Shown one piece after another: positions 7,111 through 60,956 of a stretch of 64,000 nucleotides of DNA. Numbering within the stretch: the stretch's first letter is position 1; the number at the start of each line of letters is the position of its first letter. Below the pieces are notes generated by a model, which saw only the letters and a program-made list of their open reading frames with translations, made no database searches and was not told the DNA's origin. The position numbers were made by a program, and so were the translations under genes. Source of the DNA: a phage; sequence record PZ445534.1. One strand, 5' to 3'.

Positions 7111-7301
7111 TATTCAATATCTACAAGTTCTTGTGCAATGCTTTTCAGATTACCTTTCAAGAAAACCTTCTCAGAACCTGAAAGAGATGAATTGTCAATT
7201 AACCTGTTCATTCTCTCAAACAACTTCTGCTTACGATTTTTGATAGTCTCCTTTGAAGCACCTTTCATCATCGCTGCATGGGTTCTTCCACGATGGCTCA
7301 T
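7092..7301 (-). CDS. hypothetical protein
   Basis: 69-aa ORF. Confidence 0.3.
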   Translation of the reverse strand: MSHRGRTHAAMMKGASKETIKNRKQKLFERMNRLIDNSSLSGSEKVFLKGNLKSIAQELVDIEYWRHQK

Positions 7302-7352
7302 AAGCCCTCCTATATAAGATATAGTATAAGGTACTCTTCCATGAGCACCTTG

Positions 7353-7886
7353 TCAACTTAGTTTTGCAAACTCTCCGTGGAGTTTAATAGCAGCTTCACA
7401 GTAAGCTTTATGGGCTTCTTCAGGTGTGTCATGGTGACCTAAAAACATCTTCTTACCTTTATAACTTATCTGTGCGACCCACTTACCAGACTTCTTCTTA
7501 AGACTTACACCCTTGTACCCAGATTTATTGGTGACCGGTTTACCTTTATTCCAAGCACTTTGAAAATCATCTGCTTCCCTTAAGTTTACAATCCTGTTGT
7601 CAAGTGAGTCTCCGTTGATATGGTCAATGATACCTTTTGGCATCTTGCCATACACGTAAAGCCATGCGAGTCTGTGTGCTTTATGTGCTTTCTTGTCAAA
7701 ATAGATACTAACCTGTTTATGACCACTTGAATCAGTCTGGATATTACCTGCCACCTTTCCTGCATAATTACTGTTAAAAACACTAACAGCTCTTGATTTA
7801 CCTTCTCTACGAAGCCAAGTAAAGACCCCTGTTTCGGGGTCATAGTGCAGCAGCTCCTTTAAACGTTTTTGTAAAATTAAATCCAT
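7353..7886 (-). CDS. HNH homing endonuclease with AP2-like DNA-binding domain
   Basis: HNH_3-like core DHINGDSLDNRIVNLR and AP2-like SGYKGVS...GKWVAQI...EEAHKAY; N-terminus LHYDPETGVFTW shared with ORF 17725-18240. Confidence 0.7.
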   Translation of the reverse strand: MDLILQKRLKELLHYDPETGVFTWLRREGKSRAVSVFNSNYAGKVAGNIQTDSSGHKQVSIYFDKKAHKAHRLAWLYVYGKMPKGIIDHINGDSLDNRIVNLREADDFQSAWNKGKPVTNKSGYKGVSLKKKSGKWVAQISYKGKKMFLGHHDTPEEAHKAYCEAAIKLHGEFAKLS

Positions 7887-7889
7887 TAA

Positions 7890-8444
7890 TCAATGTACCT
7901 CATACCAGCTCTTACCAACCTTTGCTGTACCAGTTACAAGTGTTTCTTTCCTCAAACCTAAGTTTTTTGAAGCTTGTCCATACATCCAGTCAGCAATTGC
8001 TTTCATATCATGTGTCATACCCTCTGGACATTCCCAACTATTTTCATCGTGATATGCCAGAAGTAACCTTGCTCCGATAGCTGGTTTTCGAGCATTCAGT
8101 TTTGTCAGGCCATCTTCACAGGCTTTTCTTGCTGCTAGGTTGATGGCCTCATTCTGAATCTGTGCTTCCGAACTCATCAGGAGGTAGTTCAGTAGTTTAT
8201 GTGGAGATTTGCACCATATCCATGCTCCAGCGACCCTGATATAACCACCTTTAGCAATTGAAGAATTCTTCCCAAAAACCTCTTCCAGAGCCTTTTTAGA
8301 CGCCTTAAAATCGGCTTCTAAGCTATCAAGTAACTTCTTAATCTTTGGCAGACGCATATAGTAAGTTTGTTTAGTCAATGCACCTTCTTCCGTAGATGAT
8401 GCCTTGATAGTTTTTGCAAACTTCTCGTCTCCAGCCCCGAACAA
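7890..8444 (-). CDS. DNA polymerase (family A), downstream exon/fragment (motif B second half to motif C)
   Basis: FGAGDEK, KSPHKLLNYLL and AYHDENSWEC align with T7 gp5 YGAGDEK, RSPHAALNTLL, AWVHDEIQVGC; ORF track start is a TTG preceded by stop, no good RBS. Confidence 0.75.
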   Translation of the reverse strand: MFGAGDEKFAKTIKASSTEEGALTKQTYYMRLPKIKKLLDSLEADFKASKKALEEVFGKNSSIAKGGYIRVAGAWIWCKSPHKLLNYLLMSSEAQIQNEAINLAARKACEDGLTKLNARKPAIGARLLLAYHDENSWECPEGMTHDMKAIADWMYGQASKNLGLRKETLVTGTAKVGKSWYEVH

Positions 8445-8705
8445 TACATCTGGTCAATACACTCGCAAGGTGTACCAGTTCTCTTATGAACTTCTCCGCA
8501 TTTCTACGGAGTGTCGGACTATATCACGTAGCAGTGGTGCTACCGTTGCACTTGGGATGGTCATTAGCTTACCACCCTACTCTACTCAGTTCATACGTTA
8601 AGTATGCTTTTCGATAGTCTCTGAACGTTCCTCTTAAGAGGCTTCGCTGCTGATTACCATATCTTTACAGACTTAGGCTTCCAGCAATTCACAACGTTTT
8701 ACATG
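8445..8705 (-). ncRNA. putative ORF-less group I intron interrupting DNA polymerase motif B
   Basis: Intervening sequence with stop codons; coding strand has R-like GTTCAGAGACTA and S-like GATATAGTCC elements, ends in G; exact splice sites not resolved. Confidence 0.6.
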
Positions 8706-10886
8706 CGCCACTGACGCATAAATGCCATTTTTGGCTTTCTTACGACCTTTTGTAATCTCGTGGAGAAGTTCCTCATCCTGTGTCTCCCTACAACGAACAA
8801 TGTCTTCTTCCTTGTTCAGACCAAAGTAAATACTATTCAGTGTATGTGCATCAGTACCTGTGTAGACTTCATAGAGGTCATTCTCAGCATCATAACGCAG
8901 ATACTTGTCAGTTTCTGGGTTAAGATACTTGTCAAGATGCTTGCAGTAGTATCTACCATCATCTTGCTTAGTGAACTCAACTGACTCTTTACCCTCAGTT
9001 ACCGCTTTAGTGAAGTCTTCATCACCCATAAAGTTACAAAGAAGAACTAGCTGGGCTGAGTTTTGGTCTACAGAGACAACGTTAGTACCTTCTTCACAAA
9101 TCCACACCTCCCTCATAGGTGCTCCATAGACAGCAGCACCAGACGGTACGTTTACAATACCATATTGTGTCATACGTCCAGTTGAAGTACCAAACACCAT
9201 TGCACCAGCACTAAGGCGACCATCAGGACGAATCTGGTTCAACCAACCTTTTTCATCATCTTTTGAGTTCTCAATAGTTCTACGTCGGTGCATCAAAGTA
9301 TAGTACTTAGCAATCTTCTGTCCAAGCTCACCTTCAATCGTATCATAAGATGATTCAGTAAGTTTTGGTGAAGTACGGATTAAGCAAGGCTCAAGCAAAT
9401 CTGTGTATTTCTTCACAGACCAGTTATGCTCAATGTACTGGACACCTTCATGCTCAACATAGCTCAAACCACACCGCTCAACCATTTCCTGCCACTTAGG
9501 ATGCTTTGTAATCATCTTTTTATTGTCTTTGAAACGACAAACTTTGATAGGGCGACCATCTGAGTCTTTCTTGTAATTCCAGTCATCTGGAATCCAACCA
9601 ACTGATTTCAAGTAGTCTTTAACAACTGCTACCTGAGTCATACGAGAAACTTCAAACTCAATTGGTGTATATGGTGCATCAATCAAACCTGTGTAGCGAC
9701 TTGACTCAAGTTCAAAGTGGTTAACAACGTGGCTGTTATAGTACTTCACAGTTTTGACTGTTTTTACTGGCTTCCAGTCTTTGCATTTCTTACCAATCTT
9801 TGCGTTCAACTCATTGCAAATTGCACGAGCATCCTTCATTGCTACAAAACCTTCCTTGTACTCTTCACCAGTTACAGAGTTGGTTGGTGTATAGCAATTC
9901 CTTTTTTCAATGTTAAAAATCTTTGTAGTTGGCTTACCAAATGGTTTGATTTCGTATGTCTGCATCTCACCATTACGTACCTGCTGACGATACTTTGTCT
10001 TAGGGTACTTGGTAATTCTTTTCAGTCCATCTGCATGACCAAATGTTTCAACATACTCATTCCAAGCTTTTGCAAACTCTTCTCCAGTGACTTTACCTTT
10101 GGTCTTAATAGTTGGAGGAAGATGTGGTTCAACCTCTGAAGCAAGCTCATTAGTCAACTTGTCAAGTTCCTTTACATGGAACTCCATAAGCTCTTTATCA
10201 GCTTTCCAACCATTAATAGCTTGTTGACTCATCCAGAAAGATGTTTCTTTAGCTCGCATGTAGGTTTCATAAGTGTCTATGCCACACTTCTTAAGCTTGA
10301 GATACTCATTATCAAGTGCCCGTTTAGTTTTGGCGTTAATACGGATATCTTCTACAACACGAGTGAAGATTTCTGCATTCCACACACCCCAATGTTCAAT
10401 CTCTGGTTTACGAACACCAACACGAGCACCCCATGCAGCCAAGCCATGAGCACCTTTATAACCCTTTGGAGTTGGTCTATCCATCCACTGAACACGAGAC
10501 TGGATAAGAGAATCCTGAAAGAAATTACTCCACGGCTTACACTTTGGATTATCAAAGTTCCATAAATCCGGTGCAATGTGATTGAAAACCCACCAGTCAT
10601 AACCTAGACCATTATGAATGCAAAGACGTTTTGCCTTTAACGCAAACTCAACACCTTCACGTAAGCCACCCTTAATGTACTTGGTATACTTGTGACCGAG
10701 GATAGGCTCATCTGTAAAGACCCATACAGGCGGCTCTTTATCGTCAGATTTATAGTCTGCGAAAGCCATTACGTGCACTTTAGTGAACTCAAGGAGTAAA
10801 CCATCAGTTTCTGTATCACCAACTAAATGTAAGTTTTTAAAATCTACGTTTTCCATTTTTACTCCCTCTAAAATCATTAACCTCAT
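8673..10886 (-). CDS. DNA polymerase (family A, T7 gp5-like) upstream exon/fragment with 3'-5' exonuclease domain
   Basis: Exo motif VGDTETDG near N-terminus; ORF ends inside motif B (RKKAKNGIY...) shortly before an in-frame stop. Confidence 0.85.
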   Translation of the reverse strand: MRLMILEGVKMENVDFKNLHLVGDTETDGLLLEFTKVHVMAFADYKSDDKEPPVWVFTDEPILGHKYTKYIKGGLREGVEFALKAKRLCIHNGLGYDWWVFNHIAPDLWNFDNPKCKPWSNFFQDSLIQSRVQWMDRPTPKGYKGAHGLAAWGARVGVRKPEIEHWGVWNAEIFTRVVEDIRINAKTKRALDNEYLKLKKCGIDTYETYMRAKETSFWMSQQAINGWKADKELMEFHVKELDKLTNELASEVEPHLPPTIKTKGKVTGEEFAKAWNEYVETFGHADGLKRITKYPKTKYRQQVRNGEMQTYEIKPFGKPTTKIFNIEKRNCYTPTNSVTGEEYKEGFVAMKDARAICNELNAKIGKKCKDWKPVKTVKTVKYYNSHVVNHFELESSRYTGLIDAPYTPIEFEVSRMTQVAVVKDYLKSVGWIPDDWNYKKDSDGRPIKVCRFKDNKKMITKHPKWQEMVERCGLSYVEHEGVQYIEHNWSVKKYTDLLEPCLIRTSPKLTESSYDTIEGELGQKIAKYYTLMHRRRTIENSKDDEKGWLNQIRPDGRLSAGAMVFGTSTGRMTQYGIVNVPSGAAVYGAPMREVWICEEGTNVVSVDQNSAQLVLLCNFMGDEDFTKAVTEGKESVEFTKQDDGRYYCKHLDKYLNPETDKYLRYDAENDLYEVYTGTDAHTLNSIYFGLNKEEDIVRCRETQDEELLHEITKGRKKAKNGIYASVAHVKRCELLEA

Positions 10887-16724: not shown

Positions 16725-17771
16725 ATGGAGAAGTACACATTAACAAAACTTCCCGATTCAGTTACACATGTTTTTATTGACTCTGACAGTATTGCCTATA
16801 AAGGTGCTTGTGTAGTTGAGAAAGCAAAGTATAAATATGTCAATAAACTCACAGCAGAAGAATCTGAACCATTTGATAATGCGAAAGATGCTGCAAGATG
16901 GTTAGCAGACCAGAGAATCCTTGTGGAAGAACTTGGCCTGACATTTGATGAAGATGAATGGGAAAGACAGACTTGGAAAGAAGCTAAGAGTGAAAAAGAA
17001 GCTATCATGGCTACTCAACAGGTTCTTCAGGAATGGCTTAAGGTTGTTGGTAAAGAGAGAATTTGGGTAGGTTATCTAACAGAGAAAGGTGTGCATAAGC
17101 ATAAAGACATTAAAGGTCTTGAGCACCAATATCAAGGTAACCGTAAAGATGCTGTCACACCAACACACTTAGTTGCTTGTCGTGAGTATCTTCTGTCAAG
17201 ACCAGAGTTCAAACTAATTCTTGATGGATTTGAAGCCGATTCTATCGTTATTGCTAAAGCTGAAAAGATGGGTAAAAAGGCTGCCTTGATGAGTATTGAT
17301 AAAGACCTTCGTCAAGCTGAAGGGACTTACTGCATTGATATGACCTATGAAAAGTCACCTTTGATTTTCATTGCTGACAACAACGTAGGTGAAATTTGGG
17401 ATTGCCCAATAAAATCGACACCAAAAGCTAAGAAGACAGTTGGGGTAGGTTTTAAATTTCTTTGTTACCAAGCTGTGGCTGGTGATAATGCTGATAATTA
17501 TTTTGGTTTAAAGGGCGTTGGTAAGGCTACTGTAATGAAAGCACTTGAAGGTAAAACCACCTACAAAGAGTGTCTTGATGCAATTTATGAGCTTTATGCT
17601 AAGAAAGAGTCATACACTTATGTCTCGTGGGATGGTCAAACAATTACCAGAACACCTTTAGAGTTAATGCAGCAACACTTTTTCTTAGCTTATCAGGAAA
17701 GAAACAAGAAAGACGATTTTACTTTTGATAAGTATGGGTGGACACCAAATGTTAACTCAACAAACTCTTAA
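16725..17771 (+). CDS. 5'-3' exonuclease / flap endonuclease (FEN family, T7 gp6-like)
   Basis: Acidic cluster FIDSDSIAY near N-terminus, AGDNADNYFG and H3TH-like LKGVGKATVMKAL. Confidence 0.65.
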   Translation: MEKYTLTKLPDSVTHVFIDSDSIAYKGACVVEKAKYKYVNKLTAEESEPFDNAKDAARWLADQRILVEELGLTFDEDEWERQTWKEAKSEKEAIMATQQVLQEWLKVVGKERIWVGYLTEKGVHKHKDIKGLEHQYQGNRKDAVTPTHLVACREYLLSRPEFKLILDGFEADSIVIAKAEKMGKKAALMSIDKDLRQAEGTYCIDMTYEKSPLIFIADNNVGEIWDCPIKSTPKAKKTVGVGFKFLCYQAVAGDNADNYFGLKGVGKATVMKALEGKTTYKECLDAIYELYAKKESYTYVSWDGQTITRTPLELMQQHFFLAYQERNKKDDFTFDKYGWTPNVNSTNS

Positions 17772-18240
17772 AGAGTACCTACATTATGACCCCGAAACAG
17801 GGGTCTTTACTTGGATTAAGAAATCTGCTAGACACACAAAAATTGGCTCTGTTGCAGGTACAAACTTAAGAGGGTATACCAGAATTTATTTGTTTGGTAA
17901 GGGCTATTATGCACATACCCTAGCCGTTCTGTATATGGATGGATACCTACCTGAGTGTGTTGACCATAAAAATCATGTAACACTAGACAATCGCTGGGTA
18001 AATCTTAGGGCATGTACGTTATCAGAGAACCAATGTAATAGGTTGCTCAATAAGAACAATAAATCAGGTGTTAAAGGTGTGTACTACAAAAAACAGTATG
18101 GTAAGTGGTCTACACAGATAACTTTTAAGAAGAGGGTTTACTTCTTCGGCAACTATGACACTATTGATGAAGCAGCAGAGGTTGTAAATAGGGAACGTCA
18201 ACGTTTACACAAAGAGTTTGCTAATAAAGGTGATGAATGA
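17725..18240 (+). CDS. HNH homing endonuclease with AP2-like domain (paralog of 7353-7886)
   Basis: LHYDPETGVFTW N-terminus, VDHKNHVTLDNRWVNLR HNH core, SGVKGVYY...GKWSTQI AP2-like. Confidence 0.7.
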   Translation: MISMGGHQMLTQQTLKEYLHYDPETGVFTWIKKSARHTKIGSVAGTNLRGYTRIYLFGKGYYAHTLAVLYMDGYLPECVDHKNHVTLDNRWVNLRACTLSENQCNRLLNKNNKSGVKGVYYKKQYGKWSTQITFKKRVYFFGNYDTIDEAAEVVNRERQRLHKEFANKGDE

Positions 18241-18737
18241 GAAAAATAAAAGGTTTTGGCAATTGCCCTGAATATGGACATTGGGTTTCACTATGTGGTG
18301 AAGTTGACCCAGCAAAGCACTTTGGTTTTGTCTACCTAGTGTACTGCAAAAAGACTGGACAGTACTATTTGGGTAAAAAACAGCTTAACAGTGTGACCAA
18401 AAGAAAAGTTGCTGGGAAGACTCGGAAGAAGATAGTCACTAAGGAAAGTGATTGGATGACTTATGAGACTTCTTCTGAGTATATTAAAAAAGATATTGAA
18501 AGCTTTGGAAAAGAATTTTTTGACTTTTACATTATTCAGACCTACTACACAAAAGGTGGCCTAGTCTATGGTGAAGCAAACCTTCAACATAAATTCGATG
18601 TAATGACAAAAAGGATTGACTCGAAGCTCAGACTCTTCTACAATGCCAATATTGCAGCAATTAAGTTTATTACTAAAGAAACTTATGAAGATGCTGAAAA
18701 AAGAATCCATAAGGTAATGAAAGCAAACTGTGCTTGA
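18237..18737 (+). CDS. putative GIY-YIG homing endonuclease
   Basis: GFVYLVYCKKTGQYYLGKK matches GIY-(10 aa)-YIG spacing. Confidence 0.5.
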   Translation: MRKIKGFGNCPEYGHWVSLCGEVDPAKHFGFVYLVYCKKTGQYYLGKKQLNSVTKRKVAGKTRKKIVTKESDWMTYETSSEYIKKDIESFGKEFFDFYIIQTYYTKGGLVYGEANLQHKFDVMTKRIDSKLRLFYNANIAAIKFITKETYEDAEKRIHKVMKANCA

Positions 18738-24522: not shown

Positions 24523-25722
24523 ATGAACAAAGTACAGATTATTAAAAAGAATGGCTCACTTGAAGAACCTGATATCAAAAAAGTTTTAGCAGCAGTCACA
24601 AAGTCAGCTAACAGAGTTGGTTATAAAGAGCTTCCACCAGATGTTACTCAAGCTCTTGAGTCAGCATTTATGAGGATTCTGGTAAAGTCCACTAAGCAGA
24701 ATAATTTGCTAATTTCGGTAAATGATATTCACAGTATTGTTGAGGGTGCTTTGGCAGAAGTCAATCACGAGATTTATGAGTCTTACTCAACATATAGAAA
24801 TTACCGTAAAGAGGTTGCTCAAAATTGGGATGAACTCTACCAGAAGACCAAAGATACACTCTTCTTAGGCGACCGAGAAAACGCTAATTTTGACAGCAGT
24901 TTAATTTCTACAAAAGGCTCAATTATTCGTGGTTACCTGACTAAAGAAATCTTTAAACAGTACCATTTAACACCAGAGGAACTTGAAGCCATTGAAAAAG
25001 GATTTATCTATATCCATGATTTAAGAGACCTAATTTTTGGTGGTATCAACTGTTGCCTGTTTGACATTGGTAAAGTCCTGAAAGGTGGCTTTGAAATGTC
25101 TGGCATTGAATATTGTGAACCGAAGTCTGTGCTGTCAGCCTTACAGGTTATTGGTGATGTAGTTCTTTCAGCAACTGCACAGCAATTTGGTGGCTTTACT
25201 TTAGCAGAGATTGATAAGGTACTTGTACCGTATGCTAAGAAGTCTCTACGTTACCATGCTGAAAAAGCAACAGCTTATGGTATTCCTAAAGAACATTACC
25301 ACAACTATGTCATGGAGCAGCTACAGATTGAATTAACTCAAGGTTTTCAGTCTCTTGAAATGAAGCTCAATACTGTGCCTTGTAGCCGTGGTGATTTTGC
25401 ATTCACAACTTTGACATTCGGGTTACTTGACTCAGATATGTCTAATGAAGATAACCGACTGCAATACATGATTGCGAGCACTCTCCTAGATGTTCGTATG
25501 AATGGACAAGGTAAGAGCAAGAAACCTGTTGTATTCCCTAAACTGGTTTATATTTATGACCAGAAGAGACACAATGAGAATATCTGTCAAGGCCACCTGT
25601 ACAGTAAAGCTATTGAGTGTTGCTCTAAAGCTATGTATCCAGATTTCTTAAGTGTATCTGGACATGGTGCTGTAGCAGAGGCTTTTGAGCGTTCTGGCAA
25701 GGTAATTTCCCCGATGGGTTAA
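24523..25722 (+). CDS. nrdD: anaerobic ribonucleoside-triphosphate reductase, exon 1
   Basis: ATP-cone-like N-terminus; ORF ends at TAA 25720-25722 which lies at start of intron-like sequence. Confidence 0.75.
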   Translation: MNKVQIIKKNGSLEEPDIKKVLAAVTKSANRVGYKELPPDVTQALESAFMRILVKSTKQNNLLISVNDIHSIVEGALAEVNHEIYESYSTYRNYRKEVAQNWDELYQKTKDTLFLGDRENANFDSSLISTKGSIIRGYLTKEIFKQYHLTPEELEAIEKGFIYIHDLRDLIFGGINCCLFDIGKVLKGGFEMSGIEYCEPKSVLSALQVIGDVVLSATAQQFGGFTLAEIDKVLVPYAKKSLRYHAEKATAYGIPKEHYHNYVMEQLQIELTQGFQSLEMKLNTVPCSRGDFAFTTLTFGLLDSDMSNEDNRLQYMIASTLLDVRMNGQGKSKKPVVFPKLVYIYDQKRHNENICQGHLYSKAIECCSKAMYPDFLSVSGHGAVAEAFERSGKVISPMG

Positions 25723-26023
25723 CAAGCTCTATAGCTCATCTAAAACGTGCCTAAACAGGGAAACTCTACAGATGTAGACAATCCTGTGCTAAATGATGTA
25801 CGATGTAAGAAACTATACAACATAGGAGTCTTACATGCCAAATAACTTCGAATATGAGTTTGAATACATCTAAATGCCGAACGACTAACCGTGATGAATG
25901 TAGCGGTGTAGGGTCAAGCGACTCGAAATGGTACGCTACTTAGAAATAAGTAGAAGATATAGTCTGGACTTACTGGCGACAGTAAGCAGCTTGAATAAAG
26001 CGGGGTAAGCTTAGCGAACTTAC
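25720..26023 (+). ncRNA. putative ORF-less group I intron in nrdD
   Basis: AAACAGGGAAACTCTACAGATGTAGACAATCCTGTGCTAAAT closely resembles the T4 td intron core as recalled; S-like AAGATATAGTC element present; 3' boundary uncertain (26014-26038). Confidence 0.7.
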
Positions 26024-26983
26024 TTGAACAACAAGTGTAGAGCATTTTTATCACCATACCATAACGAACATGGTGAAGAGTTTTATGTAGGTCGTGCTAA
26101 CATTGGTGCTGTATCTTTGAACTTACCAATGATTTATCAGTACACCAAAGAGAATGGCTTAGATTTCTGGAAAGAGCTTGATAAGTACCTAGAAATGATT
26201 CGCAGCTTCCACAAGAAACGTTACGAAATGATTGCTAATATGCCAGCAAGTTCTAACCCTCTTGCATTCACACAGGGTGGTCTGTACAAAGGGAATAAGA
26301 AACCTACTGACAAGGTTGGCTGGGATATCGTGAAGTCCTTCACAGCTTCTTTTGGGGTTACTGCGCTTGATGAGCTATCTGTTCTTGCTGAAGGTAAACG
26401 ACTCCATGAAGTTGGAAGCTGTAGTTTTGCATATGATGTTCTGGCATACATTAACATGAAAACTGAAGAGTTTAAGAACGAAGATGGCTTCTTGTATGCG
26501 GTATATGGCACTCCAGCAGAATCACTTTGTGGAACTCAGTTAAAACAGTTCAGAGATATGTTTGGCGTTATTAAAGGTGTCTCTGACAAGGAATACTTTA
26601 CAAACAGTTTCCATATGAATGTTGCAGCAGACATCTCACCATTTGAGAAGCAGGACTTAGAAGAGCCATTCTTCCATATCTGTAGAGGTGGTAGAATCCA
26701 GTATGTAAGGGTAGCTAACCCAGAAAACTTAACAGCACTTAAAAGTTGTATTACAAGAGGGATGTTGAAAGGTTTCTATCAGGGGCTTAACTTTGACTTA
26801 GCAATCTGTGAACATTGTGGTAACAGACCAAAGGCTGATGTTGAAGAATGTGAGGTTTGCCATTCACATGATATCTCTGTGATTAACAGGGTGTGCGGGT
26901 ACTTGTCATTCACAAAAATTAAAGGTCAGTCTCGAATGAATGACGCTAAGATGGCAGAAATTAAGGATAGGGTTTCTATGTAA
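26024..26983 (+). CDS. nrdD: anaerobic ribonucleoside-triphosphate reductase, exon 2
   Basis: C-terminal CEHCGN...CEVCH zinc site and glycyl-radical motif RVCGYL; true exon start probably slightly upstream of ORF-track start. Confidence 0.75.
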   Translation: MNNKCRAFLSPYHNEHGEEFYVGRANIGAVSLNLPMIYQYTKENGLDFWKELDKYLEMIRSFHKKRYEMIANMPASSNPLAFTQGGLYKGNKKPTDKVGWDIVKSFTASFGVTALDELSVLAEGKRLHEVGSCSFAYDVLAYINMKTEEFKNEDGFLYAVYGTPAESLCGTQLKQFRDMFGVIKGVSDKEYFTNSFHMNVAADISPFEKQDLEEPFFHICRGGRIQYVRVANPENLTALKSCITRGMLKGFYQGLNFDLAICEHCGNRPKADVEECEVCHSHDISVINRVCGYLSFTKIKGQSRMNDAKMAEIKDRVSM

Positions 26984-26994
26984 AACTTGACAAG

Positions 26995-27381
26995 GTGGTG
27001 TGGGTCTTGATAGGCTTACATCACCTTTTTATTTGGAGTTACATTATGGACTTGTGGCTTTATGTAGCAGTTTGTGGGATTGTATGTCTGATAATCTTAT
27101 TTATTCTTGGAATAATGCGATTTAGAGACATCATACAGTCAGATTTTTTGCCTGAGTTTACCATGATAGTTGGAGTTATTACACTTTGTGTCTTGGCTGT
27201 GTTCTATTCATACAAAACTGTGATATGGATGGAGGCAAACAATTGTGTAAAAACTCATCAGCATCGTGAGGTTACTCATTCTGTGAGTGTACTTAGTGGT
27301 AGCACCACTATACTTGTCCCACAAACTTCTGTAGAGTATCTTTACACATGTGATAATGGTAAAACTATATGGTGGAATTAA
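26995..27381 (+). CDS. hypothetical membrane protein
   Basis: TM-like segments. Confidence 0.35.
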   Translation: MVWVLIGLHHLFIWSYIMDLWLYVAVCGIVCLIILFILGIMRFRDIIQSDFLPEFTMIVGVITLCVLAVFYSYKTVIWMEANNCVKTHQHREVTHSVSVLSGSTTILVPQTSVEYLYTCDNGKTIWWN

Positions 27382-27584
27382 CAATGACAACACTCTTAAA
27401 AGTATTGATACCCATACTACATATAGCAGTCTTCTTTTTTGGTGTTAGTGTTATGGTATGGGGATTTTCAGACCCACAATGGAGTTTCTCATATCATGGT
27501 CAGATGGATTTATGGTCATGCTTCAAACCATTTTTAGGGTTAGCTATAGCATTCAGTGCATTACCAACTAAGGTGAAATTATGA
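27369..27584 (+). CDS. hypothetical membrane protein
   Basis: 71-aa hydrophobic ORF. Confidence 0.3.
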   Translation: MVELTMTTLLKVLIPILHIAVFFFGVSVMVWGFSDPQWSFSYHGQMDLWSCFKPFLGLAIAFSALPTKVKL

Positions 27585-28035: not shown

Positions 28036-28521
28036 ATGAATTACATGGAGATTAGACCATTCGATACATCTAATGGTGAAGGGGTTCGTGTAAGCCTCTT
28101 CGTAGCTGGTTGTAAGCATCACTGTGAAGGCTGCTTTAACAGGGAGTCTTGGAAGTTTAATGCTGGTAAAGTATTTACTTATGCAAACTTCTACGGCATC
28201 ATTAAGTTAATGGATGATGATGCTGTCAGTGGGCTGTCAATACTTGGTGGAGAACCTCTGGATGATAGAAATATTCAAGAGGTTACCAACATATGCAAAC
28301 GTATTAAAACCGTTTACCCAGAAAAATCTATCTGGCTCTGGACAGGTTTTCAGTTACACGAAAAAATTCACCTAGATGTGATGAAATATGTTGACGTGGT
28401 GATTGATGGTAAGTATGATTCATCTAAACCAACAGTTAAACCATATCGTGGTTCTGATAACCAAAACCTCTGGAGAAAAGAGTATGGATGGCAAGGCGAT
28501 TGTCAATGGCGAGCAGAGTGA
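28036..28521 (+). CDS. nrdG: anaerobic ribonucleotide reductase activating protein (radical SAM)
   Basis: CxxxCxxC cluster GCKHHCEGCFN near N-terminus, about 160 aa. Confidence 0.8.
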   Translation: MNYMEIRPFDTSNGEGVRVSLFVAGCKHHCEGCFNRESWKFNAGKVFTYANFYGIIKLMDDDAVSGLSILGGEPLDDRNIQEVTNICKRIKTVYPEKSIWLWTGFQLHEKIHLDVMKYVDVVIDGKYDSSKPTVKPYRGSDNQNLWRKEYGWQGDCQWRAE

Positions 28522-28759
28522 TTATTCTGGCAAATGGACTTACGACATCAACAAGTTAGATGCTTGGATGATTTATACGAGAGAAAAATTTGGTGCAAGT
28601 TCATTATGTGCTCTTGCAACGATGGTGAAGAACGTTACCTTTGACATTCATGACTCAGATAAGTTTGGAGACTTCTACAGGATTCAAAACATCAGAGAAG
28701 GCATGACTCCAATTGGTATCACTGAAGAAGAACTTCATAAGTTCTGTATTAAACTTTAA
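28484..28759 (+). CDS. hypothetical protein
   Basis: ATG at 28484 with GGAGAAAAG RBS; overlaps nrdG 3' end in another frame. Confidence 0.3.
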   Translation: MDGKAIVNGEQSDYSGKWTYDINKLDAWMIYTREKFGASSLCALATMVKNVTFDIHDSDKFGDFYRIQNIREGMTPIGITEEELHKFCIKL

Positions 28760-29040
28760 TGAGAGAGACTAAAATGGGAATTTTAGGTAATATGAAAGCT
28801 GGCTTCTTGAAGGCACTGGCAAAAGCAGCAGCAATCATTTCTATGACTGGAAAGCAGGTTGGTGTAGATGCTTCAGCAGTTGCACAAGTTCTTACAAGCC
28901 AAATTGAACAGCAACCTTACATCTACGTAGGCCGTGGCAAAGGTGGTAAAAAACAAGCACATCGACCAACTGGTGCAGCAGCAATTAAACGTGCAGCTAA
29001 AAAAGCTCGTAACCGTAAACGTAATAAGAAGGCTAAATAA
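28759..29040 (+). CDS. hypothetical small basic protein
   Basis: Lys/Arg-rich C-terminus. Confidence 0.35.
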   Translation: MRETKMGILGNMKAGFLKALAKAAAIISMTGKQVGVDASAVAQVLTSQIEQQPYIYVGRGKGGKKQAHRPTGAAAIKRAAKKARNRKRNKKAK

Positions 29041-29042: not shown

Positions 29043-29363
29043 ATGAGCAAAGTTTATAACACTCGCAAATTACAGATTTTCGTACTGTGCCAGTTTATGG
29101 CTAAAGAATACAACTTCTACTATTGCGGCACAGGTTTTATTAGCGACGATGATGGTTCATACCTACCATTCAAAGAAGCTGTAAAACTCTTTAATGAAGA
29201 GAAAAGCTCTAAGAAAGATATTGAAAAGGTTAAGCTAACTTACAGTAAGAAAGATAAGAAGATTATCTGCCTAGATAACTTTGTAAAAGTTACTGGAGAA
29301 GCAAAAGAGTTTATGGATGAGAGTGAGATTTCATTCACAAGCATCTTGAAAGTAGCTCAGTAA
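29043..29363 (+). CDS. hypothetical protein
   Basis: 106-aa ORF. Confidence 0.35.
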   Translation: MSKVYNTRKLQIFVLCQFMAKEYNFYYCGTGFISDDDGSYLPFKEAVKLFNEEKSSKKDIEKVKLTYSKKDKKIICLDNFVKVTGEAKEFMDESEISFTSILKVAQ

Positions 29364-29376
29364 ACAGATACTATAA

Positions 29377-29405
29377 GGGAACTGTAAAGGTTCCCTTTTT
29401 ATTTT
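29377..29405 (+). terminator. rho-independent terminator
   Basis: GGGAAC/GTTCCC stem plus TTTTTATTTT. Confidence 0.65.
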
Positions 29406-29527
29406 GGAGATGATATGTATCTGTCAAACCTAAAACGTTCTGCTGCAATGTCAGTGTTAAGACTTAGCTTTGAGGAACGTCAAGAGTTCATTGACTCCAC
29501 CAATACGACCCCTCAAACTCCAATCAC

Positions 29528-29800
29528 ATGATTCTCTGGAATCGTGAAAGTACTCGTGAAAGAGTACTATTCCGTTATTACCCACACTACACTATAGATA
29601 ACCTGTATGAATGTTTTGTTGTGAAGAACACCATTGCAGTGCTCAATAAGCTTTGTAGATACACAGGTAGTCAATCCTTCACATTAGGCCACCACAAACC
29701 TGTTACAAAAGGTGGTGAACATCACTGTGCAAACTGGTTTATTCAGACTAAAGCTGATAACCAGAAGCAAGGAGATAACCTTTTAAGTGCCCTAAGATGA
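29528..29800 (+). CDS. putative small HNH endonuclease
   Basis: LGHHKPVTKGGEHHCANW...QTKADNQKQ resembles HNH His/Asn core. Confidence 0.35.
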   Translation: MILWNRESTRERVLFRYYPHYTIDNLYECFVVKNTIAVLNKLCRYTGSQSFTLGHHKPVTKGGEHHCANWFIQTKADNQKQGDNLLSALR

Positions 29801-29920
29801 CCTATGAAGAGCAAGAGAGATATATCAAAAATAATATGCCAGATGTGCTTGACAACAACTATACAGATTTGGCAATATCTCTCCTGTTGAAGTTCGAGAC
29901 AGTTTATAGGGCAACTTATA

Positions 29921-30199
29921 ATGGCTAAAGAAAAGTGGGAGATTTTACCATTAGTCAGTGAAGGAGGTAATGGTTGTGAAATGTACATGATACGTGGTCA
30001 TGTTCCAGAGCCAATTGCACTTGAGATGGTAAACAACTTTACAGATGGTTCTTACAAAGACTTAGGCGAACCAACTGTCAAGCAACAATGGGTTAAACCT
30101 GTACCAGACAGCACAGGTAACTGTAGTGTACTTTATCACGTTGTAGACCCTGCAAAATGCAAATCTGCAATGGCAGTAACAAACGTAACTTTTGATTGA
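29921..30199 (+). CDS. hypothetical protein
   Basis: 92-aa ORF. Confidence 0.3.
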   Translation: MAKEKWEILPLVSEGGNGCEMYMIRGHVPEPIALEMVNNFTDGSYKDLGEPTVKQQWVKPVPDSTGNCSVLYHVVDPAKCKSAMAVTNVTFD

Positions 30200-58622: not shown

Positions 58623-58699
58623 AAAGTTTATCTCTGTTTAGCTCAGCTTGGTAGAGCGTTCCGTTTGGGGCGGTAAGGCCGGAGGTTCAAGTCCTCCAA
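58623..58699 (+). tRNA. tRNA-Pro (anticodon TGG)
   Basis: Acceptor CTCTGTT/AACAGAG, D-arm AGCTCAGCTTGGTAGAGC, T-arm GGAGGTTCAAGTCCTCC, encoded CCA; one anticodon-stem mismatch. Confidence 0.7.
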
Positions 58700-58706
58700 C
58701 AGAGAC

Positions 58707-58784
58707 CAAATTAATGTTCCAGTAGACAAAATGGTATAGTCACCACTCTTTCAAAGTGGATATCTGAGGGTTCAAATCCCTTCT
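58707..58784 (+). tRNA. tRNA-Glu (anticodon TTC)
   Basis: Acceptor GTTCCAG/CTGGAAC, anticodon arm CCACT-CTTTCAA-AGTGG, T-loop TTCAAAT, CCA. Confidence 0.7.
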
Positions 58785-58786
58785 GG

Positions 58787-58866
58787 AACGCCAGTTTTGA
58801 CAGAAGACCAATTACAGCAAACTTAATCTACTCATCTGAAAGTTAATCGGACAAAGAAGATATTTG
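58787..58866 (+). repeat. inter-tRNA repeat element copy 1 (ACAGAAGACC-N4-TACAGCAA ... GGTCTGG)
   Basis: Conserved 5' and 3' motifs shared with copies at 58953, 59347, 59437. Confidence 0.6.
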
Positions 58867-58875
58867 GTCTGGTCA

Positions 58876-58951
58876 TTAAGAATTGCGGGTATAGAGAAAG
58901 GGCGTCTCACATGTCTCATTAGCATGGTATCGGCAGGTTCGACTCCTGCAC
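58876..58951 (+). tRNA. tRNA with CAT anticodon (Met/fMet/Ile2), irregular acceptor pairing
   Basis: D-arm GAGA-AAGGGCG-TCTC, anticodon arm CATGT-CTCATTA-GCATG, T-arm GCAGGTTCGACTCCTGC; acceptor 6 of 7 pairs. Confidence 0.5.
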
Positions 58952-58952
58952 C

Positions 58953-59025
58953 CGCCTCCAAATTTACAGAAGACCGTTTACAGCAATATTTATTAAATTT
59001 TTAGCGGAAAAATTGAAAGATACGG
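58953..59025 (+). repeat. inter-tRNA repeat element copy 2
   Basis: ACAGAAGACCGTTTACAGCAA ... ACGGTCTGGT. Confidence 0.6.
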
Positions 59026-59034
59026 TCTGGTAAT

Positions 59035-59108
59035 ACTAAATATGGTTAGGAAGCACATAAGGTATGTGCGGTCGCCTGTTAAGCGAATGGCACAGGGTTC
59101 GAATCCCT
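59035..59108 (+). tRNA. tRNA-Asn (anticodon GTT)
   Basis: Acceptor GGTTAGG/ACTAACC, D-arm GCAC-ATAAGGTAT-GTGC, anticodon loop CTGTTAA, T-arm CAGGGTTCGAATCCCTG; no encoded CCA. Confidence 0.6.
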
Positions 59109-59119
59109 GACTAACCGCA

Positions 59120-59207
59120 AAATTAAATGTGTCGTTATCCCGTAGATGGTAGCGGTGGGGACTGTAAATCCCTTGTCATTGAGACTCGGTAGGTTCGACT
59201 CCTACAC
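59120..59207 (+). tRNA. tRNA-Tyr (anticodon GTA), long variable arm
   Basis: Acceptor GTGTCGT/ACGGCAC, anticodon arm GGGGA-CTGTAAA-TCCCT, T-arm GTAGGTTCGACTCCTAC, CCA. Confidence 0.65.
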
Positions 59208-59212
59208 GGCAC

Positions 59213-59289
59213 ACCAATAAAGGCTATGTAGTTTAACTGGAGAAAATACTCCCCTGTCACGGGAGATGATGTGAGTTCAAGTCTCATCG
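59213..59289 (+). tRNA. tRNA-Asp (anticodon GTC)
   Basis: Acceptor GGCTATG/CGTAGCC, anticodon arm CTCCC-CTGTCAC-GGGAG, T-loop TTCAAGT, CCA. Confidence 0.7.
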
Positions 59290-59346
59290 TAGCCGCCAAT
59301 TTTGAGAGGGCTATTTAGCCCCTCCCTTAAAGAGTTCTTACGAGTA

Positions 59347-59428
59347 TTCTTTAAAGGAGCAGAAGACCAAATACAGCAAGAATGTATGATATTTTCAAGC
59401 CAATTCAATTTTGAAAAATTTAAAACTT
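59347..59428 (+). repeat. inter-tRNA repeat element copy 3
   Basis: CAGAAGACCAAATACAGCAA ... CTTGGTCTGGC. Confidence 0.55.
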
Positions 59429-59436
59429 GGTCTGGC

Positions 59437-59572
59437 TCAACAAATTTACAGAAGACCGTTTACAGCAAAACTTAAACAATCTATTTCTCGGTAAAGAAAA
59501 GGCGAAGGTTCGATTCCTTCACTCGGCAGAGGTCGAGTTGGTGTAATGGTAGCACTTAAGATGATAAACAAC
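59437..59572 (+). repeat. inter-tRNA repeat element copy 4 enclosing tRNA halves in permuted order
   Basis: ACAGAAGACCGTTTACAGCAA ... [anticodon-arm-like + T-arm GAAGGTTCGATTCCTTC + 3' acceptor ACTCGGC] GAG [5' acceptor GTCGAGT + D-arm GTGTAATGGTAGCAC] ... ACGGTCTGGT. Confidence 0.5.
59474..59547 (+). other. tRNA-like segments in 3'-half then 5'-half order (permuted tRNA or recombinant tRNA fragments)
   Basis: 3' acceptor ACTCGGC (59512-59518) is complementary, with one G.U, to GTCGAGT (59523-59529) located 4 nt downstream. Confidence 0.4.
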
Positions 59573-59721
59573 GGTCTGGTAATTATCTTTGCAGTAGCTT
59601 ATGTGGCTAATTATGTCGTCCCATGAGTGCCGATGAATTTCCTTAGCATGATTCTAGATTAGCTTAATAGGAAATGACTCTACAGACCCTTTAGCAAGGT
59701 CTGCGTAGGTTACTGCAAAGA

Positions 59722-59797
59722 TGATTTAATGGAAGTGTAGCAGAATGGTGATGCGGCAGACTTTTAATCTGACAGGCGATGGGTTCGAATCCCTCCA
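59722..59797 (+). tRNA. tRNA-Lys (anticodon TTT)
   Basis: Acceptor GGAAGTG/CACTTCT, anticodon loop CTTTTAA, T-loop TTCGAAT with weak T-stem, CCA; homologous to tRNA at 60957. Confidence 0.55.
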
Positions 59798-59802
59798 CTT
59801 CT

Positions 59803-59879: not shown

Positions 59880-59881
59880 GA

Positions 59882-59957: not shown

Positions 59958-59972
59958 ACAGTACCAATTTCA

Positions 59973-60513: not shown

Positions 60514-60526
60514 CCCATGCCAAAGT

Positions 60527-60949: not shown

Positions 60950-60956
60950 GGTGTAC

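What the first reader, a model, noticed from the sequence alone, without database searches (positions are those of the whole stretch)
17725..18737. Cluster of homing-endonuclease genes, including paralogous HNH-AP2 genes at two loci
Two HNH endonucleases with AP2-like DNA-binding domains (7353-7886 and 17725-18240) share an identical N-terminal LHYDPETGVFTW segment. A GIY-YIG-like ORF (18237-18737) directly follows the second, and a small HNH-like ORF lies at 29528-29800. Together with the two intron-like insertions this marks a genome actively colonised by selfish elements; the HNH gene next to the polymerase intron could mobilise it in trans.
Basis: partly seen in the sequence, partly recalled or inferred. 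Interest (0 to 1): 0.5.

Follow-up and report, generated by a model that had tools for sequence, protein, structure and literature searches.

The report
Homing endonuclease genes in Felix-O1-like phage
This Felix-O1-like phage carries two genuine mobile HNH-AP2 homing endonuclease genes, a fixed GIY-YIG nuclease gene, a broken HNH-like gene and two self-splicing introns, which is the ordinary and already described selfish-DNA load of this phage group.

Summary
The window is a Felixounavirus (Felix O1-like myovirus) genome segment, 97% identical to many GenBank phages.

- **HNH-AP2 genes.** Both are real (Pfam HNH_3 + AP2, 41% identical to each other). Each sits at a fixed gene junction where relatives carry the same allele, a different allele or nothing. 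Each lies in a ~0.7-1.2 kb island of 73-85% identity against a 94-99% background, the classic signature of free-standing homing endonuclease genes with co-conversion.
- **Shared LHYDPETGVFTW segment.** It is real, but it is a motif of the whole HNH family rather than evidence of recent duplication.
- **GIY-YIG ORF.** It is a SegE-type nuclease domain, but it is a syntenic core gene across the Ounavirinae, not a visibly mobile element.
- **Small HNH-like ORF.** It is the middle fragment of a conserved 171-aa gene broken by two window-specific 1-nt deletions. Its HNH assignment is weak.
- **Introns.** Both are confirmed as ORF-less group I introns, in the DNA polymerase and nrdD genes.
- **Trans-mobilisation.** This is untested but gains support. 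All 15 genomes inspected with the ORF-less polymerase intron carry an HNH gene just downstream (at least four alleles). The arrangement resembles known collaborative or trans homing.

Multiple homing endonucleases in Felix O1-like phages are already published and annotated, so interest is low to moderate.

The parts
17749..18240 (+). Free-standing HNH-AP2 homing endonuclease gene at the exonuclease/GIY-YIG junction. The longest ORF starts at TTG 17725; ATG 17749 is the favoured start.
   Evidence: Pfam HNH_3 1.2e-11; PHROG_99 7e-69. In a 50-row spread sample it is absent from 33 relatives, replaced by another allele in 12 and the same allele in 5. The inserted segment is about 17741-18235.
18237..18737 (+). 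SegE-type GIY-YIG nuclease-domain protein (166 aa). It is a core syntenic gene of the Ounavirinae and is often mis-annotated as 'NAD synthetase'.
   Evidence: Pfam PF19835 1.1e-26. Present in Felixounavirus, Suspvirus, Mooglevirus (86%) and Erwinia Kolesnikvirus (62%) in the same position. The GIY and YIG motifs, Glu113 and Asn136 are invariant in homologues down to 28% identity. No match to solved structures by sequence.
7353..7886 (-). Free-standing HNH-AP2 homing endonuclease gene. It starts 3 nt after the DNA polymerase stop codon, and its own stop codon lies inside a conserved TTGACA motif.
   Evidence: Pfam HNH_3 9e-15, AP2 1.2e-12; AP2 hits in the PDB. Absent from CL1, EC6 and VpaE1; at least four alleles occupy the same site in other genomes.
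8447..8713 (-). ORF-less group I intron (267 nt) in the DNA polymerase gene, splitting polymerase motif B.
   Evidence: Rfam RF00028, 61.7 bits. The splice ...GCGT|intron...ATG|TATTG restores A-L-L-F-G as in intronless CL1 and HY02. The same intron carries an Endonuclease_7 ORF in VSe102, EC6 and VpaE1.
7890..8446 (-). DNA polymerase exon 2, part of a hypervariable tract that runs from 7890 to about 9100.
   Evidence: 96-99% identical to five genomes but only 70-86% to the others, while polymerase sequence from about 9100 to 10886 is 94-100% identical in all six Felixounavirus genomes compared.
8714..10886 (-). DNA polymerase exon 1.
   Evidence: ORF and Pfam/PHROG polymerase matches; alignment to the intronless polymerase genes.
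17201..17740 (+). Left flanking haplotype island (3' half of the exonuclease gene) linked to the HNH insertion.
   Evidence: 94-96% identical among HNH+ genomes (VpaE1, EC6, VSe102) against 79% to HNH- genomes (pSJ21, CL1). The 5' half of the gene is 95-98% in all. HY02 is a recombinant.
18243..18420 (+). Right flanking haplotype island (first ~180 nt of the GIY-YIG gene) linked to the HNH insertion.
   Evidence: 94-98% identical among all HNH+ genomes against 81-82% to HNH- genomes. The rest of the gene is 95-98% in all Felixounavirus genomes compared.
17788..17805 (+). Terminator-like hairpin GACCCC-GAAACA-GGGGTC about 15 codons into the HNH ORF.
   Evidence: -12.6 kcal/mol. The stem is invariant in all 7 alleles examined; two of them have different loops.
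7824..7841 (-). The same hairpin in the polymerase-locus HNH gene.
29415..29928 (+). Frameshifted copy of a conserved 171-aa gene (PHROG 3500) with an HNH-like H-H...GG...N...DN motif.
25720..26035 (+). ORF-less group I intron (316 nt) in the anaerobic ribonucleotide reductase gene nrdD.
   Evidence: Rfam 54.6 bits. Its removal restores the CL1 reading frame. Relatives carry an HNH_3 ORF inside it.

Best explanation
The window comes from a Felix O1-like myovirus (Felixounavirus).

**The two HNH-AP2 genes (shown by comparison).** They are free-standing homing endonuclease genes. Each occupies a precise gene junction: one between the 5'-3' exonuclease and the GIY-YIG gene, the other between the DNA polymerase stop codon and a conserved TTGACA motif. 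Neither has an evident promoter of its own, and both overlap or abut their neighbours, so they are probably expressed by read-through and translational coupling (inferred).

**How they spread (inferred).** During mixed infection the enzyme would cut the endonuclease-free allele of a related phage near the insertion site. Repair from the endonuclease-carrying genome would then copy in the gene together with several hundred bases of flanking sequence. This would explain the islands of 73-85% identity around both genes in genomes that are otherwise 94-99% identical. It would also explain the swapping of endonuclease alleles at the same site.

**The polymerase intron (association shown, causation inferred).** The ORF-less group I intron lies 560 nt from the polymerase-locus HNH gene, inside that conversion tract. 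It is most likely carried along, or actively mobilised, by the HNH gene.

**The other two ORFs.** The GIY-YIG protein is a nuclease-domain-only, fixed core gene of the subfamily, so it is not a currently mobile element. The ORF at 29528 is a fragment of a conserved gene inactivated, or mis-sequenced, in this genome.
For: - **Identity of the phage:**
- **Domain assignments:**
- **Exact insertion sites and empty sites:**
  - Polymerase locus: CL1 has the polymerase stop codon, then TTAGTA, then TTGACA, where the window holds the HNH gene.
  - Exonuclease locus: pSJ21, CL1 and SUSP2 go straight from ...TGG to GGAGC...ATGAAGATT.
- **Frequency at the exonuclease locus:** 5 rows with the same allele, 12 with another allele, 33 empty, in a 50-row spread sample.
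- **Allele swapping at the polymerase locus:** at least four alleles, 42-53% identical to each other, all sharing the last 22 codons.
- **Flanking divergence islands:**
  - Polymerase tract 7890 to about 9100 is 73-82% identical to CL1, against 94-99% upstream.
  - The exonuclease 3' half and GIY-YIG 5' end fall into two haplotypes that track HNH presence. HY02 is a recombinant.
- **Intron and HNH association:**
  - All 15 inspected genomes with the ORF-less intron have a downstream HNH.
  - In the spread sample, 18/18 ORF-less introns have an HNH against 5/13 ORF-containing introns, Fisher p=1.6e-4.
- **GIY-YIG fixed and syntenic:**
- **Frameshifts in the 29415-29928 gene:**
- **Published context:**
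  - Six HNH genes in Felix O1 (PMC3185647).
  - A split nrdD gene with a homing endonuclease (PMC4837284).
  - Collaborative homing (PMC3984707).
  - mobE trans homing (PMC2790892).
Against: - No cleavage activity, target site or homing frequency has been measured for any of these proteins.
- The flanking haplotypes are not strictly linked to one HNH allele. phiWec177 and SP116 combine the window's exon-2 haplotype with a different HNH allele, and HY02 has the HNH with the 'empty-type' exonuclease 3' half. General recombination therefore contributes as well.
- In the polymerase-locus allele of the window, the Pfam HNH_3 alignment stops at profile position 38 of 46. The Asn 21 residues after the catalytic His is replaced by Ser, and the next Asn comes 3 residues later. 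The canonical spacing is recalled from memory of I-HmuI. Activity of this allele is therefore not assured.
- The HNH gene also sits next to intronless polymerase genes (HY02, SP116, SUSP2), so it does not depend on the intron.
- The association statistics ignore shared ancestry among the genomes.
Confidence: 0.8

Rival explanations
1. The HNH-AP2 proteins are not mobile elements. They are phage-serving factors, such as AP2-type DNA-binding regulators or nucleases for host DNA degradation or packaging. Their patchy distribution would reflect ordinary accessory-gene turnover.
For: Both genes are embedded in the replication and nucleotide-metabolism operons with overlapping start and stop codons. 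The window's polymerase-locus allele deviates at the last HNH motif position yet is 83-85% conserved in the different genus Suspvirus. That is compatible with selection for a function.
Against: The insertions are precise, confined to gene junctions and alternate with clean empty sites. Unrelated alleles replace one another at the same site. Localised divergence islands flank them. About two thirds of sampled relatives lack the exonuclease-locus gene altogether, so it is dispensable. Neither gene lies near a terminase gene in the window.
Confidence: 0.1
2. The ancestor carried all of these endonuclease genes, and the present polymorphism is due to repeated deletion, not invasion. The diverged flanks come from general mosaic recombination unrelated to endonuclease action.
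For: Felixounaviruses are highly mosaic. The polymerase 3' end exists in at least five or six haplotypes that do not map one-to-one onto HNH alleles. The literature notes pervasive gene conversion in large phages (PMC8594841).
Against: The empty exonuclease/GIY-YIG junction, with its 11-nt overlap of the two genes, is the same in Felixounavirus (pSJ21, CL1) and Suspvirus (SUSP2). In the Erwinia phage Panisse the two genes are likewise adjacent and overlap (8 nt by its annotation), with no HNH between them. This argues that the empty state is ancestral. Identical clean deletions in many lineages are unlikely. The divergence islands are centred on the insertion sites.
Confidence: 0.1
3. The association between the ORF-less polymerase intron and the downstream HNH is passive linkage or relaxed selection, not trans-mobilisation at the intron insertion site. 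Either the intron's own Endonuclease_7-type gene is lost only where a second endonuclease is already nearby, or the intron simply hitch-hikes in the HNH's conversion tract while the HNH cuts elsewhere.
For: The ORF-less and ORF-containing introns are 92-100% identical on both sides of the ORF site. The warpig-type introns retain about 44-46 extra nt at that site, possibly a deletion scar. The HNH occurs with intronless polymerase genes. The intron lies only 560 nt from the HNH gene, within the diverged tract.
Against: Four different HNH alleles accompany the ORF-less intron, and no ORF-less intron without an HNH was found in 15 genomes. This points to some functional dependence. Hitch-hiking in a conversion tract is itself a form of trans-mobilisation, as with T4 mobE and I-TevIII (PMC2790892).
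Confidence: 0.45
4. The GIY-YIG ORF is an active free-standing homing endonuclease gene like T4 segE.
For: Pfam SegE_GIY-YIG E=1e-26. The catalytic-motif residues are invariant. Some GenBank records label it a GIY-YIG homing endonuclease. A longer homologue with a C-terminal extension exists in Vibrio phage K571.
Against: It was present at the same position in every genome inspected from four Ounavirinae genera, with 62-99% protein identity, so no empty site is known. It is nuclease-domain only (166 aa), with no recognisable DNA-binding module. Only its first ~180 nt vary, and they vary with the neighbouring HNH.
Confidence: 0.1

Closest known systems
Felix O1 family HNH homing endonucleases (six HNH copies reported in Felix O1; PMC3185647) and their GenBank annotations in phages such as pinkbiff, VpaE1 and HY02
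   Same: The window's genes are 97-98% identical in DNA to genes already annotated as HNH and GIY-YIG homing endonucleases. They sit at the same loci and have the same domain make-up.
   Different: Nothing essential differs. The 2010 Felix O1 paper reported introns as absent, whereas group I introns are clearly present in the polymerase and nrdD genes of this lineage. The window also has a frameshifted PHROG_3500 gene.
[quoted passage not shown]
   Same: [quoted passage not shown] The two co-occur strictly in the genomes sampled (15/15).
   Different: The cleavage site is unknown here. The same intron also exists with its own Endonuclease_7-type ORF in sister phages, and the HNH also occurs beside intronless polymerase genes. 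The endonuclease is an HNH_3-AP2 protein with several interchangeable alleles.
T4 mobE / I-TevIII trans homing and T4 seg/mob intronless homing with marker exclusion (PMC2790892, PMC2988022)
   Same: These are free-standing endonuclease genes at gene junctions in nucleotide-metabolism and replication gene clusters. Flanking sequence is co-converted, and a neighbouring defunct or ORF-less intron can be mobilised.
   Different: The phage family and the endonuclease architecture differ (HNH_3 + AP2 rather than the MobE type). No genetic crosses have been done.
T4 SegE (GIY-YIG free-standing homing endonuclease; Pfam PF19835)
   Same: The catalytic-domain family is the same, with the GIY, YIG, Glu and Asn residues conserved.
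   Different: The protein is shorter, has no recognisable DNA-binding region, and is fixed and syntenic throughout the subfamily rather than sporadic.
HNH-AP2 endonucleases as the proposed source of plant AP2/ERF DNA-binding domains (Magnani et al. 2004, recalled from memory)
   Same: An HNH nuclease domain is followed by an AP2 domain that matches solved plant AP2/ERF structures by sequence.
   Different: None. These are typical members.

Membership tests
HNH endonuclease, HNH_3 type (PF13392) | Profile match above the curated threshold | tested here: met
   44.4 and 54.5 bits against a cutoff of 24.8 for 17725-18240 and 7353-7886. PHROG_99 'HNH endonuclease' 7e-69 and 8e-72.
HNH endonuclease, HNH_3 type (PF13392) | Catalytic D-H ... 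N ... N residues of the beta-beta-alpha-metal motif | tested here: inconclusive
   By inspection, the exonuclease-locus protein has VDH...DN...NL...EN with Asn 21 residues after the His. The polymerase-locus protein has IDH...DN...NL but Gln-Ser at the E-N position, with an Asn 3 residues later. Its Pfam alignment covers only profile positions 2-38 of 46.
AP2 DNA-binding domain (PF00847) | Profile match above the curated threshold | tested here: met
   7353-7886: 48.4 bits against a cutoff of 33.3, plus hits to solved plant AP2/ERF chains. 17725-18240: only 20.9 bits, sub-threshold, but the region aligns with the paralogue's AP2 domain.
Free-standing homing endonuclease gene (functional class) | Presence/absence polymorphism at a fixed site among close relatives, with a clean empty site | tested here: met
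   Both HNH-AP2 genes meet it. The GIY-YIG gene does not; no empty site is known.
Free-standing homing endonuclease gene (functional class) | Co-conversion of flanking sequence, seen as localised divergence linked to the gene | tested here: met
   Islands of 73-85% identity against a 94-99% background at both loci. Linkage is imperfect (HY02, phiWec177, SP116).
Free-standing homing endonuclease gene (functional class) | Site-specific cleavage of the endonuclease-free allele and biased inheritance in crosses | not testable with these tools
   This needs enzyme assays and phage crosses.
GIY-YIG nuclease, SegE type (PF19835) | Profile match above threshold and conserved GIY, YIG, Glu and Asn residues | tested here: met
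   93.8 bits against a cutoff of 25, covering profile positions 10-123 of 123. G30-F-V-Y33, Y44-x-G46, E113 and N136 are invariant in homologues down to 28% identity.
Group I intron (RF00028) | Covariance-model score above gathering, and removal restores the host reading frame | tested here: met
   61.7 and 54.6 bits against 50. Splice junctions follow U and G respectively and restore the polymerase and NrdD sequences of intronless relatives. Self-splicing itself was not tested.
Collaborative / trans homing system | An ORF-less intron with a free-standing endonuclease gene nearby, and co-occurrence of the two | tested here: met
   The HNH gene starts 560 nt downstream of the intron. 15 of 15 ORF-less-intron genomes have an HNH there. 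In the spread sample the ratio is 18/18 against 5/13 for ORF-containing introns, p=1.6e-4.
Collaborative / trans homing system | The endonuclease cuts the intronless allele at or near the intron insertion site, and the intron confers immunity | not testable with these tools
   There are no cleavage data. HNH+ intronless genomes exist (HY02, SP116, SUSP2), so immunity, if it exists, is not provided by the intron alone.
HNH endonuclease (for the 29528-29800 ORF / PHROG_3500 gene) | Profile or fold match to an HNH family | tested here: inconclusive

The most novel reading that the evidence does not exclude
The polymerase locus of Felixounaviruses may be a natural, still-segregating collaborative-homing system. 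Under this reading, the HNH-AP2 endonuclease encoded just downstream of the polymerase gene cuts endonuclease-free polymerase alleles at or near the intron insertion site, and so drives the ORF-less group I intron in trans.

All intermediate states co-exist in the present-day population:
- intronless without HNH;
- intronless with HNH;
- ORF-less intron with HNH;
- intron with its own Endonuclease_7 gene, with or without HNH.

In addition, the nucleotide-invariant, terminator-like hairpin about 15 codons into every HNH-AP2 allele may be a built-in attenuator or recombination junction specific to this lineage.
Probability: 0.3. Interest if true: 0.55.

Novelty: already known. Interest (0 to 1): 0.3.

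Why it matters
For annotation the result is practical.
- Two ORFs are true mobile endonuclease genes.
- One 'homing endonuclease', often labelled 'NAD synthetase', is really a fixed core GIY-YIG nuclease of unknown role.
- One 'small HNH ORF' is a broken or mis-sequenced conserved gene.
- The DNA polymerase and nrdD genes should be annotated as intron-split.

For biology, the loci show how homing endonucleases create local recombination hot zones in otherwise near-identical therapeutic and typing phages. This matters for phage phylogeny and for engineering.

The strict pairing of the ORF-less polymerase intron with a downstream HNH gene gives a well-populated natural system, roughly 260 sequenced genomes holding all intermediate states. 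[quoted passage not shown]

Tried and rejected
- **Shared N-terminus as a sign of recent duplication: rejected.** A degenerate-codon scan of IMG/VR found the peptide YDPETGVFTW in at least 120 contigs with dozens of codon sets.
- **The coding hairpin as a family-wide RNA structure: rejected.** Outside felixounavirus-like contigs, full stem complementarity occurs at chance level, 3 observed against 3.2 expected. It is lineage-specific.
- **Confirming an HNH fold for the PHROG_3500 gene: nothing decisive.**
  - Pfam at E<=10 found none.
  - A profile search of PDB sequences gave only a short, repeat-inflated resemblance of the N-terminus to staphylococcal protein A domains, probably spurious.
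- **Search for further endonuclease genes in the window: none found.** phmmer of the HNH, GIY-YIG, Endonuclease_7, intron-HNH and MobE-like proteins of relatives against all six-frame ORFs found nothing beyond those reported. The segments of window 1-32000 that some relatives lack and that lie downstream of nrdD (about 26986-27405 and 28510-28920) hold ORFs with no nuclease hit, two of them hydrophobic by eye.
- **Sequence search of the GIY-YIG protein against solved structures: no match**.
- **Strict linkage of the polymerase exon-2 haplotype with one HNH allele: rejected.** phiWec177 and SP116 break it.
- **One call failed** because of wrong coordinates for a frameshifted ORF in a relative.
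Full report
**Identity of the window.** The region 15800-20100 matches 259 phage records at up to 97% identity. Nearly all are Felixounavirus (Felix O1-like myoviruses of Salmonella, Escherichia and Shigella). In several of them the same ORFs are already annotated as 'HNH homing endonuclease' and 'GIY-YIG homing endonuclease', or wrongly as 'NAD synthetase'. The rest of the window has the expected gene order: DNA polymerase, primase/helicase, exonuclease, MazG, ribonucleotide reductases, PRPP synthetase and a block of 25 tRNA genes.

**Check of the observation.**
- All four ORFs are present at the stated coordinates.
- Pfam assigns 17725-18240 to HNH_3 (1.2e-11), with a sub-threshold AP2 match.
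- Pfam assigns 7353-7886 to HNH_3 (9e-15) and AP2 (1.2e-12).
- Pfam assigns 18237-18737 to SegE_GIY-YIG (1.1e-26).
- 29528-29800 has no Pfam match.
- PHROGs agree for the first three ORFs. They place the fourth in PHROG_3500, of unknown function, with only weak HNH hits.
- The two HNH-AP2 proteins are 41% identical and share LHYDPETGVFTW exactly.
- The AP2 domain of the polymerase-locus protein matches solved plant AP2/ERF domains.
- Rfam finds two group I introns above the gathering score.

**The exonuclease-locus HNH gene (the finding's own coordinates).** Relatives fall into three classes. In the 50 Felixounavirus rows of a spread sample:

| State at the locus | Rows |
|---|---|
| Window's allele | 5 |
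| A different HNH allele of similar length | 12 |
| No HNH gene (locus about 485 bp shorter) | 33 |

- Alignment of the junctions shows a precise insertion. HNH-less genomes (pSJ21, CL1, SUSP2) run ...AATTG|GGAGCCGTGTATGAATGAAGATT. In them the exonuclease stop codon overlaps the GIY-YIG start.
- In the window about 495 nt (17741 to about 18235) are inserted after the Trp codon. This gives the exonuclease seven new C-terminal codons. It places the HNH ATG (17749) inside the exonuclease 3' end and fuses the HNH stop codon with the GIY-YIG start (ATGA).
- The flanks are informative. The exonuclease 5' half and the GIY-YIG 3' two-thirds are 94-98% identical in all felixounaviruses compared.
- The exonuclease 3' half (17201-17735) and the first ~180 nt of the GIY-YIG gene exist as two haplotypes only 79-84% identical. 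That is as divergent as the difference between genera.
- The 'A' haplotype on the right is found in all five HNH-bearing genomes (the window, VpaE1, EC6, VSe102 and HY02). The 'B' haplotype is found in the HNH-less genomes.
- On the left, HY02 is a recombinant: B haplotype plus the HNH gene.
- This is the expected footprint of homing with co-conversion of flanking DNA from a diverged donor, and possibly of cleavage-resistant target variants.

**The polymerase-locus HNH gene and the polymerase intron.**
- The polymerase gene is split at motif B. The splice ...GCGT|...ATG|TATTG... restores A-L-L-F-G exactly as in the intronless genes of CL1, HY02 and SUSP2. The intron is therefore 8447-8713, 267 nt and ORF-less.
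- The HNH gene begins 3 nt after the polymerase stop codon. Its own stop codon lies inside a TTGACA motif that directly follows the polymerase gene in CL1, which has no HNH.
- From 7890 to about 9100 the polymerase sequence is only 73-82% identical to CL1, against 94-99% further upstream.
- Exon 2 exists in at least five or six haplotypes, 70-87% identical to one another. They do not map one-to-one onto HNH alleles.
- At least four HNH alleles, 42-53% identical, occupy this site. All share the last 22 codons at the nucleotide level.
- The intron occurs in 97 records. In a 60-row sample, 34 are ORF-less, six of them with about 44 extra nt at the ORF site. The other 26 carry an ORF of about 530 bp. 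That ORF is an Endonuclease_7-family protein.

**Test of the trans-mobilisation idea.**
- I classified the polymerase locus in 22 genomes.
- All 15 with the ORF-less intron have an HNH gene immediately downstream. Seven of them, including the window, carry the window's 534-bp allele; the rest carry the 513-bp, warpig-type or 504-bp alleles.
- Of three with the ORF-containing intron, one has the HNH gene (VSe102) and two do not (EC6, VpaE1).
- Of four intronless genomes, three have the HNH gene (HY02, SP116, SUSP2) and one does not (CL1).
- In the spread sample, 18 of 18 ORF-less-intron records have HNH sequence downstream, against 5 of 13 ORF-containing-intron records. Fisher p=1.6e-4, not corrected for shared ancestry.
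- An intron that lacks its own endonuclease is thus found only where a free-standing one sits 560 nt away.
- This fits collaborative homing, in which a free-standing endonuclease targets the insertion site of an ORF-less intron (PMC3984707, PMC6083498). It also fits trans homing by a neighbouring endonuclease, as for T4 mobE and I-TevIII (PMC2790892).
- It does not distinguish active targeting of the intron insertion site from passive hitch-hiking in the conversion tract. The cleavage site is unknown.
- One caveat: the window's polymerase-locus allele departs from the HNH_3 consensus at the last motif position.

**The GIY-YIG ORF.**
- It is a SegE-type nuclease domain with the GIY, YIG, Glu113 and Asn136 residues invariant in homologues down to 28% identity.
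- It shows none of the hallmarks of a mobile gene. It is present at the same position in Felixounavirus, Suspvirus, Mooglevirus (86% protein identity) and Erwinia Kolesnikvirus (62%), each time directly after the exonuclease gene.
- At 166 aa it has no recognisable DNA-binding module.
- More distant homologues (30-36%) occur in hundreds of T4-like cyanophages under the propagated name 'NAD synthetase'.
- It is best described as a fixed core GIY-YIG nuclease of unknown role.

**The 'small HNH-like ORF'.**
- Relatives have a 516-bp gene (171 aa) here. The window has two single-base deletions in C runs, after 29496 and after 29790. These split the gene into three frames, and 29528-29800 is the middle piece.
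- All 25 best database matches are 2 nt longer. The lesions are therefore specific to this genome: a pseudogene or homopolymer sequencing errors.
- The protein family is restricted to the Ounavirinae. It has an invariant H-[HY]-x-P...GG...N-W...D-N-Q motif on a predicted beta-beta-alpha element.

**An unplanned observation.**
- The 12 shared residues are encoded by nearly identical DNA, 38 of 39 nt. This stretch contains a perfect hairpin, GACCCC-GAAACA-GGGGTC, followed by TCTTTACTT.
- The hairpin is the only terminator-like site on the coding strand of either region.
- All seven HNH-AP2 alleles examined keep the stem. They are 42-53% identical in protein, with synonymous sites otherwise scrambled. 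Two of them have a different loop, and in those the amino acids differ too: fKMPT1/fBSPA4 GATAAA and SUSP2 GAAATA.
- Outside felixounavirus-like contigs, the same peptide is encoded without any excess of stem complementarity.
- The element is therefore lineage-specific. It may be an expression attenuator, or the short homology patch at which alleles are exchanged. Exonuclease-locus alleles are identical up to this patch and diverge after it.

**Comparison with what is known, and verdict.**
- Multiple HNH homing endonucleases in Felix O1 were reported in 2010 (PMC3185647).
- Split nrdD genes with homing endonucleases in this genus have been described (PMC4837284).
- Gene conversion around homing endonucleases in large coliphages is a recognised nuisance for phylogeny (PMC8594841).
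- The genes in this window are 97-98% identical to annotated ones. The finding as written is therefore already known, and mostly correct.
- What this analysis adds:
  - the exact insertion anatomy;
  - the co-conversion islands;
  - the demotion of the GIY-YIG and PHROG_3500 ORFs from 'homing endonuclease genes';
  - the conserved hairpin.

Noticed in passing
window 17785-17807 (+) and 7822-7844 (-): A 23-nt stretch, TATGACCCCGAAACAGGGGTCTT, is identical in both HNH-AP2 genes. It forms a terminator-like hairpin (6-bp GC-rich stem, -12.6 kcal/mol) about 15 codons into the ORF. The stem is invariant in all 7 divergent alleles examined, two of which have different loops. Outside felixounavirus-like contigs, the same peptide shows no excess of stem complementarity. 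It may be an attenuator or a recombination junction.
   Followed up: partly
window 29415-29928: The conserved 171-aa PHROG_3500 gene is broken by two 1-nt deletions in C homopolymers, after 29496 and 29790. They are not seen in any of the 25 closest database genomes. This is either a real pseudogene or homopolymer sequencing errors.
   Followed up: yes
window 7890 to about 9100 (3' end of the DNA polymerase gene): The last ~1.2 kb of the polymerase gene is hypervariable. At least 5-6 haplotypes, 70-87% identical, occur among genomes that are 94-99% identical elsewhere. They do not map strictly onto either the intron or a given HNH allele.
   Followed up: partly
window 8447-8713; L002 21753-22238; L003; L006: The same polymerase intron exists in three forms: ORF-less, with an Endonuclease_7-family ORF (frameshifted in VpaE1), and with about 44-46 extra nt at the ORF site (warpig, NS7, NJ12, Tf, garuso, S19cd). 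The last form may be a deletion scar. The 2010 Felix O1 genome paper reported introns as absent, although Felix O1-type genomes such as VSe102 carry this intron.
   Followed up: partly
window 25720-26035; L001 28255-28719; L006 39322-39858: The nrdD group I intron is ORF-less in the window and in EC6, but holds an HNH_3 (+ weak NUMOD1) ORF in pSJ21 and VSe102. VpaE1 has an intronless nrdD followed by a MobE-like/NUMOD3 endonuclease gene. This is a second locus with the same intron and free-standing-endonuclease interplay.
   Followed up: partly
window 18237-18737 and 813 phage records: The small GIY-YIG protein family carries the propagated name 'NAD synthetase' (PHROG_447 and many GenBank records, including hundreds of cyanophages). 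Pfam assigns the window protein to a GIY-YIG nuclease domain, so the name looks like a misannotation.
   Followed up: partly
window 7298-7352 (-), downstream of the polymerase-locus HNH gene: A conserved motif, TTGACAAGGTGCTCATGGAAGAGTACCTTATAC(T/A)ATATCTTATATAGGAGG, follows the polymerase gene in all genomes compared. The HNH stop codon is formed inside its TTGACA. It is possibly a promoter or regulatory element for the next gene. The simple sigma-70 scan did not report it.
   Followed up: no
PHROG_3500 protein residues about 12-56 (alignment A1): The N-terminal region (LDFDERQEFIESHKYDPSNSNHMVL) resembles the repeated B-domain motif of staphylococcal protein A ([24 protein letters not shown]). 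The profile E-value is 1.7e-9, but it is inflated by the repeats. Probably a chance or short-helix resemblance.
   Followed up: no
window 58632-63556: A cluster of 25 tRNA genes sits on the + strand, as is typical of Felix O1-like phages.
   Followed up: no
window 29376-29404: A strong intrinsic-terminator-like hairpin (GGGAACTGTAAAGGTTCCC followed by TTTTTATTT) lies between ORF 29043-29363 and the PHROG_3500 gene. It is conserved in the relatives compared.
   Followed up: no
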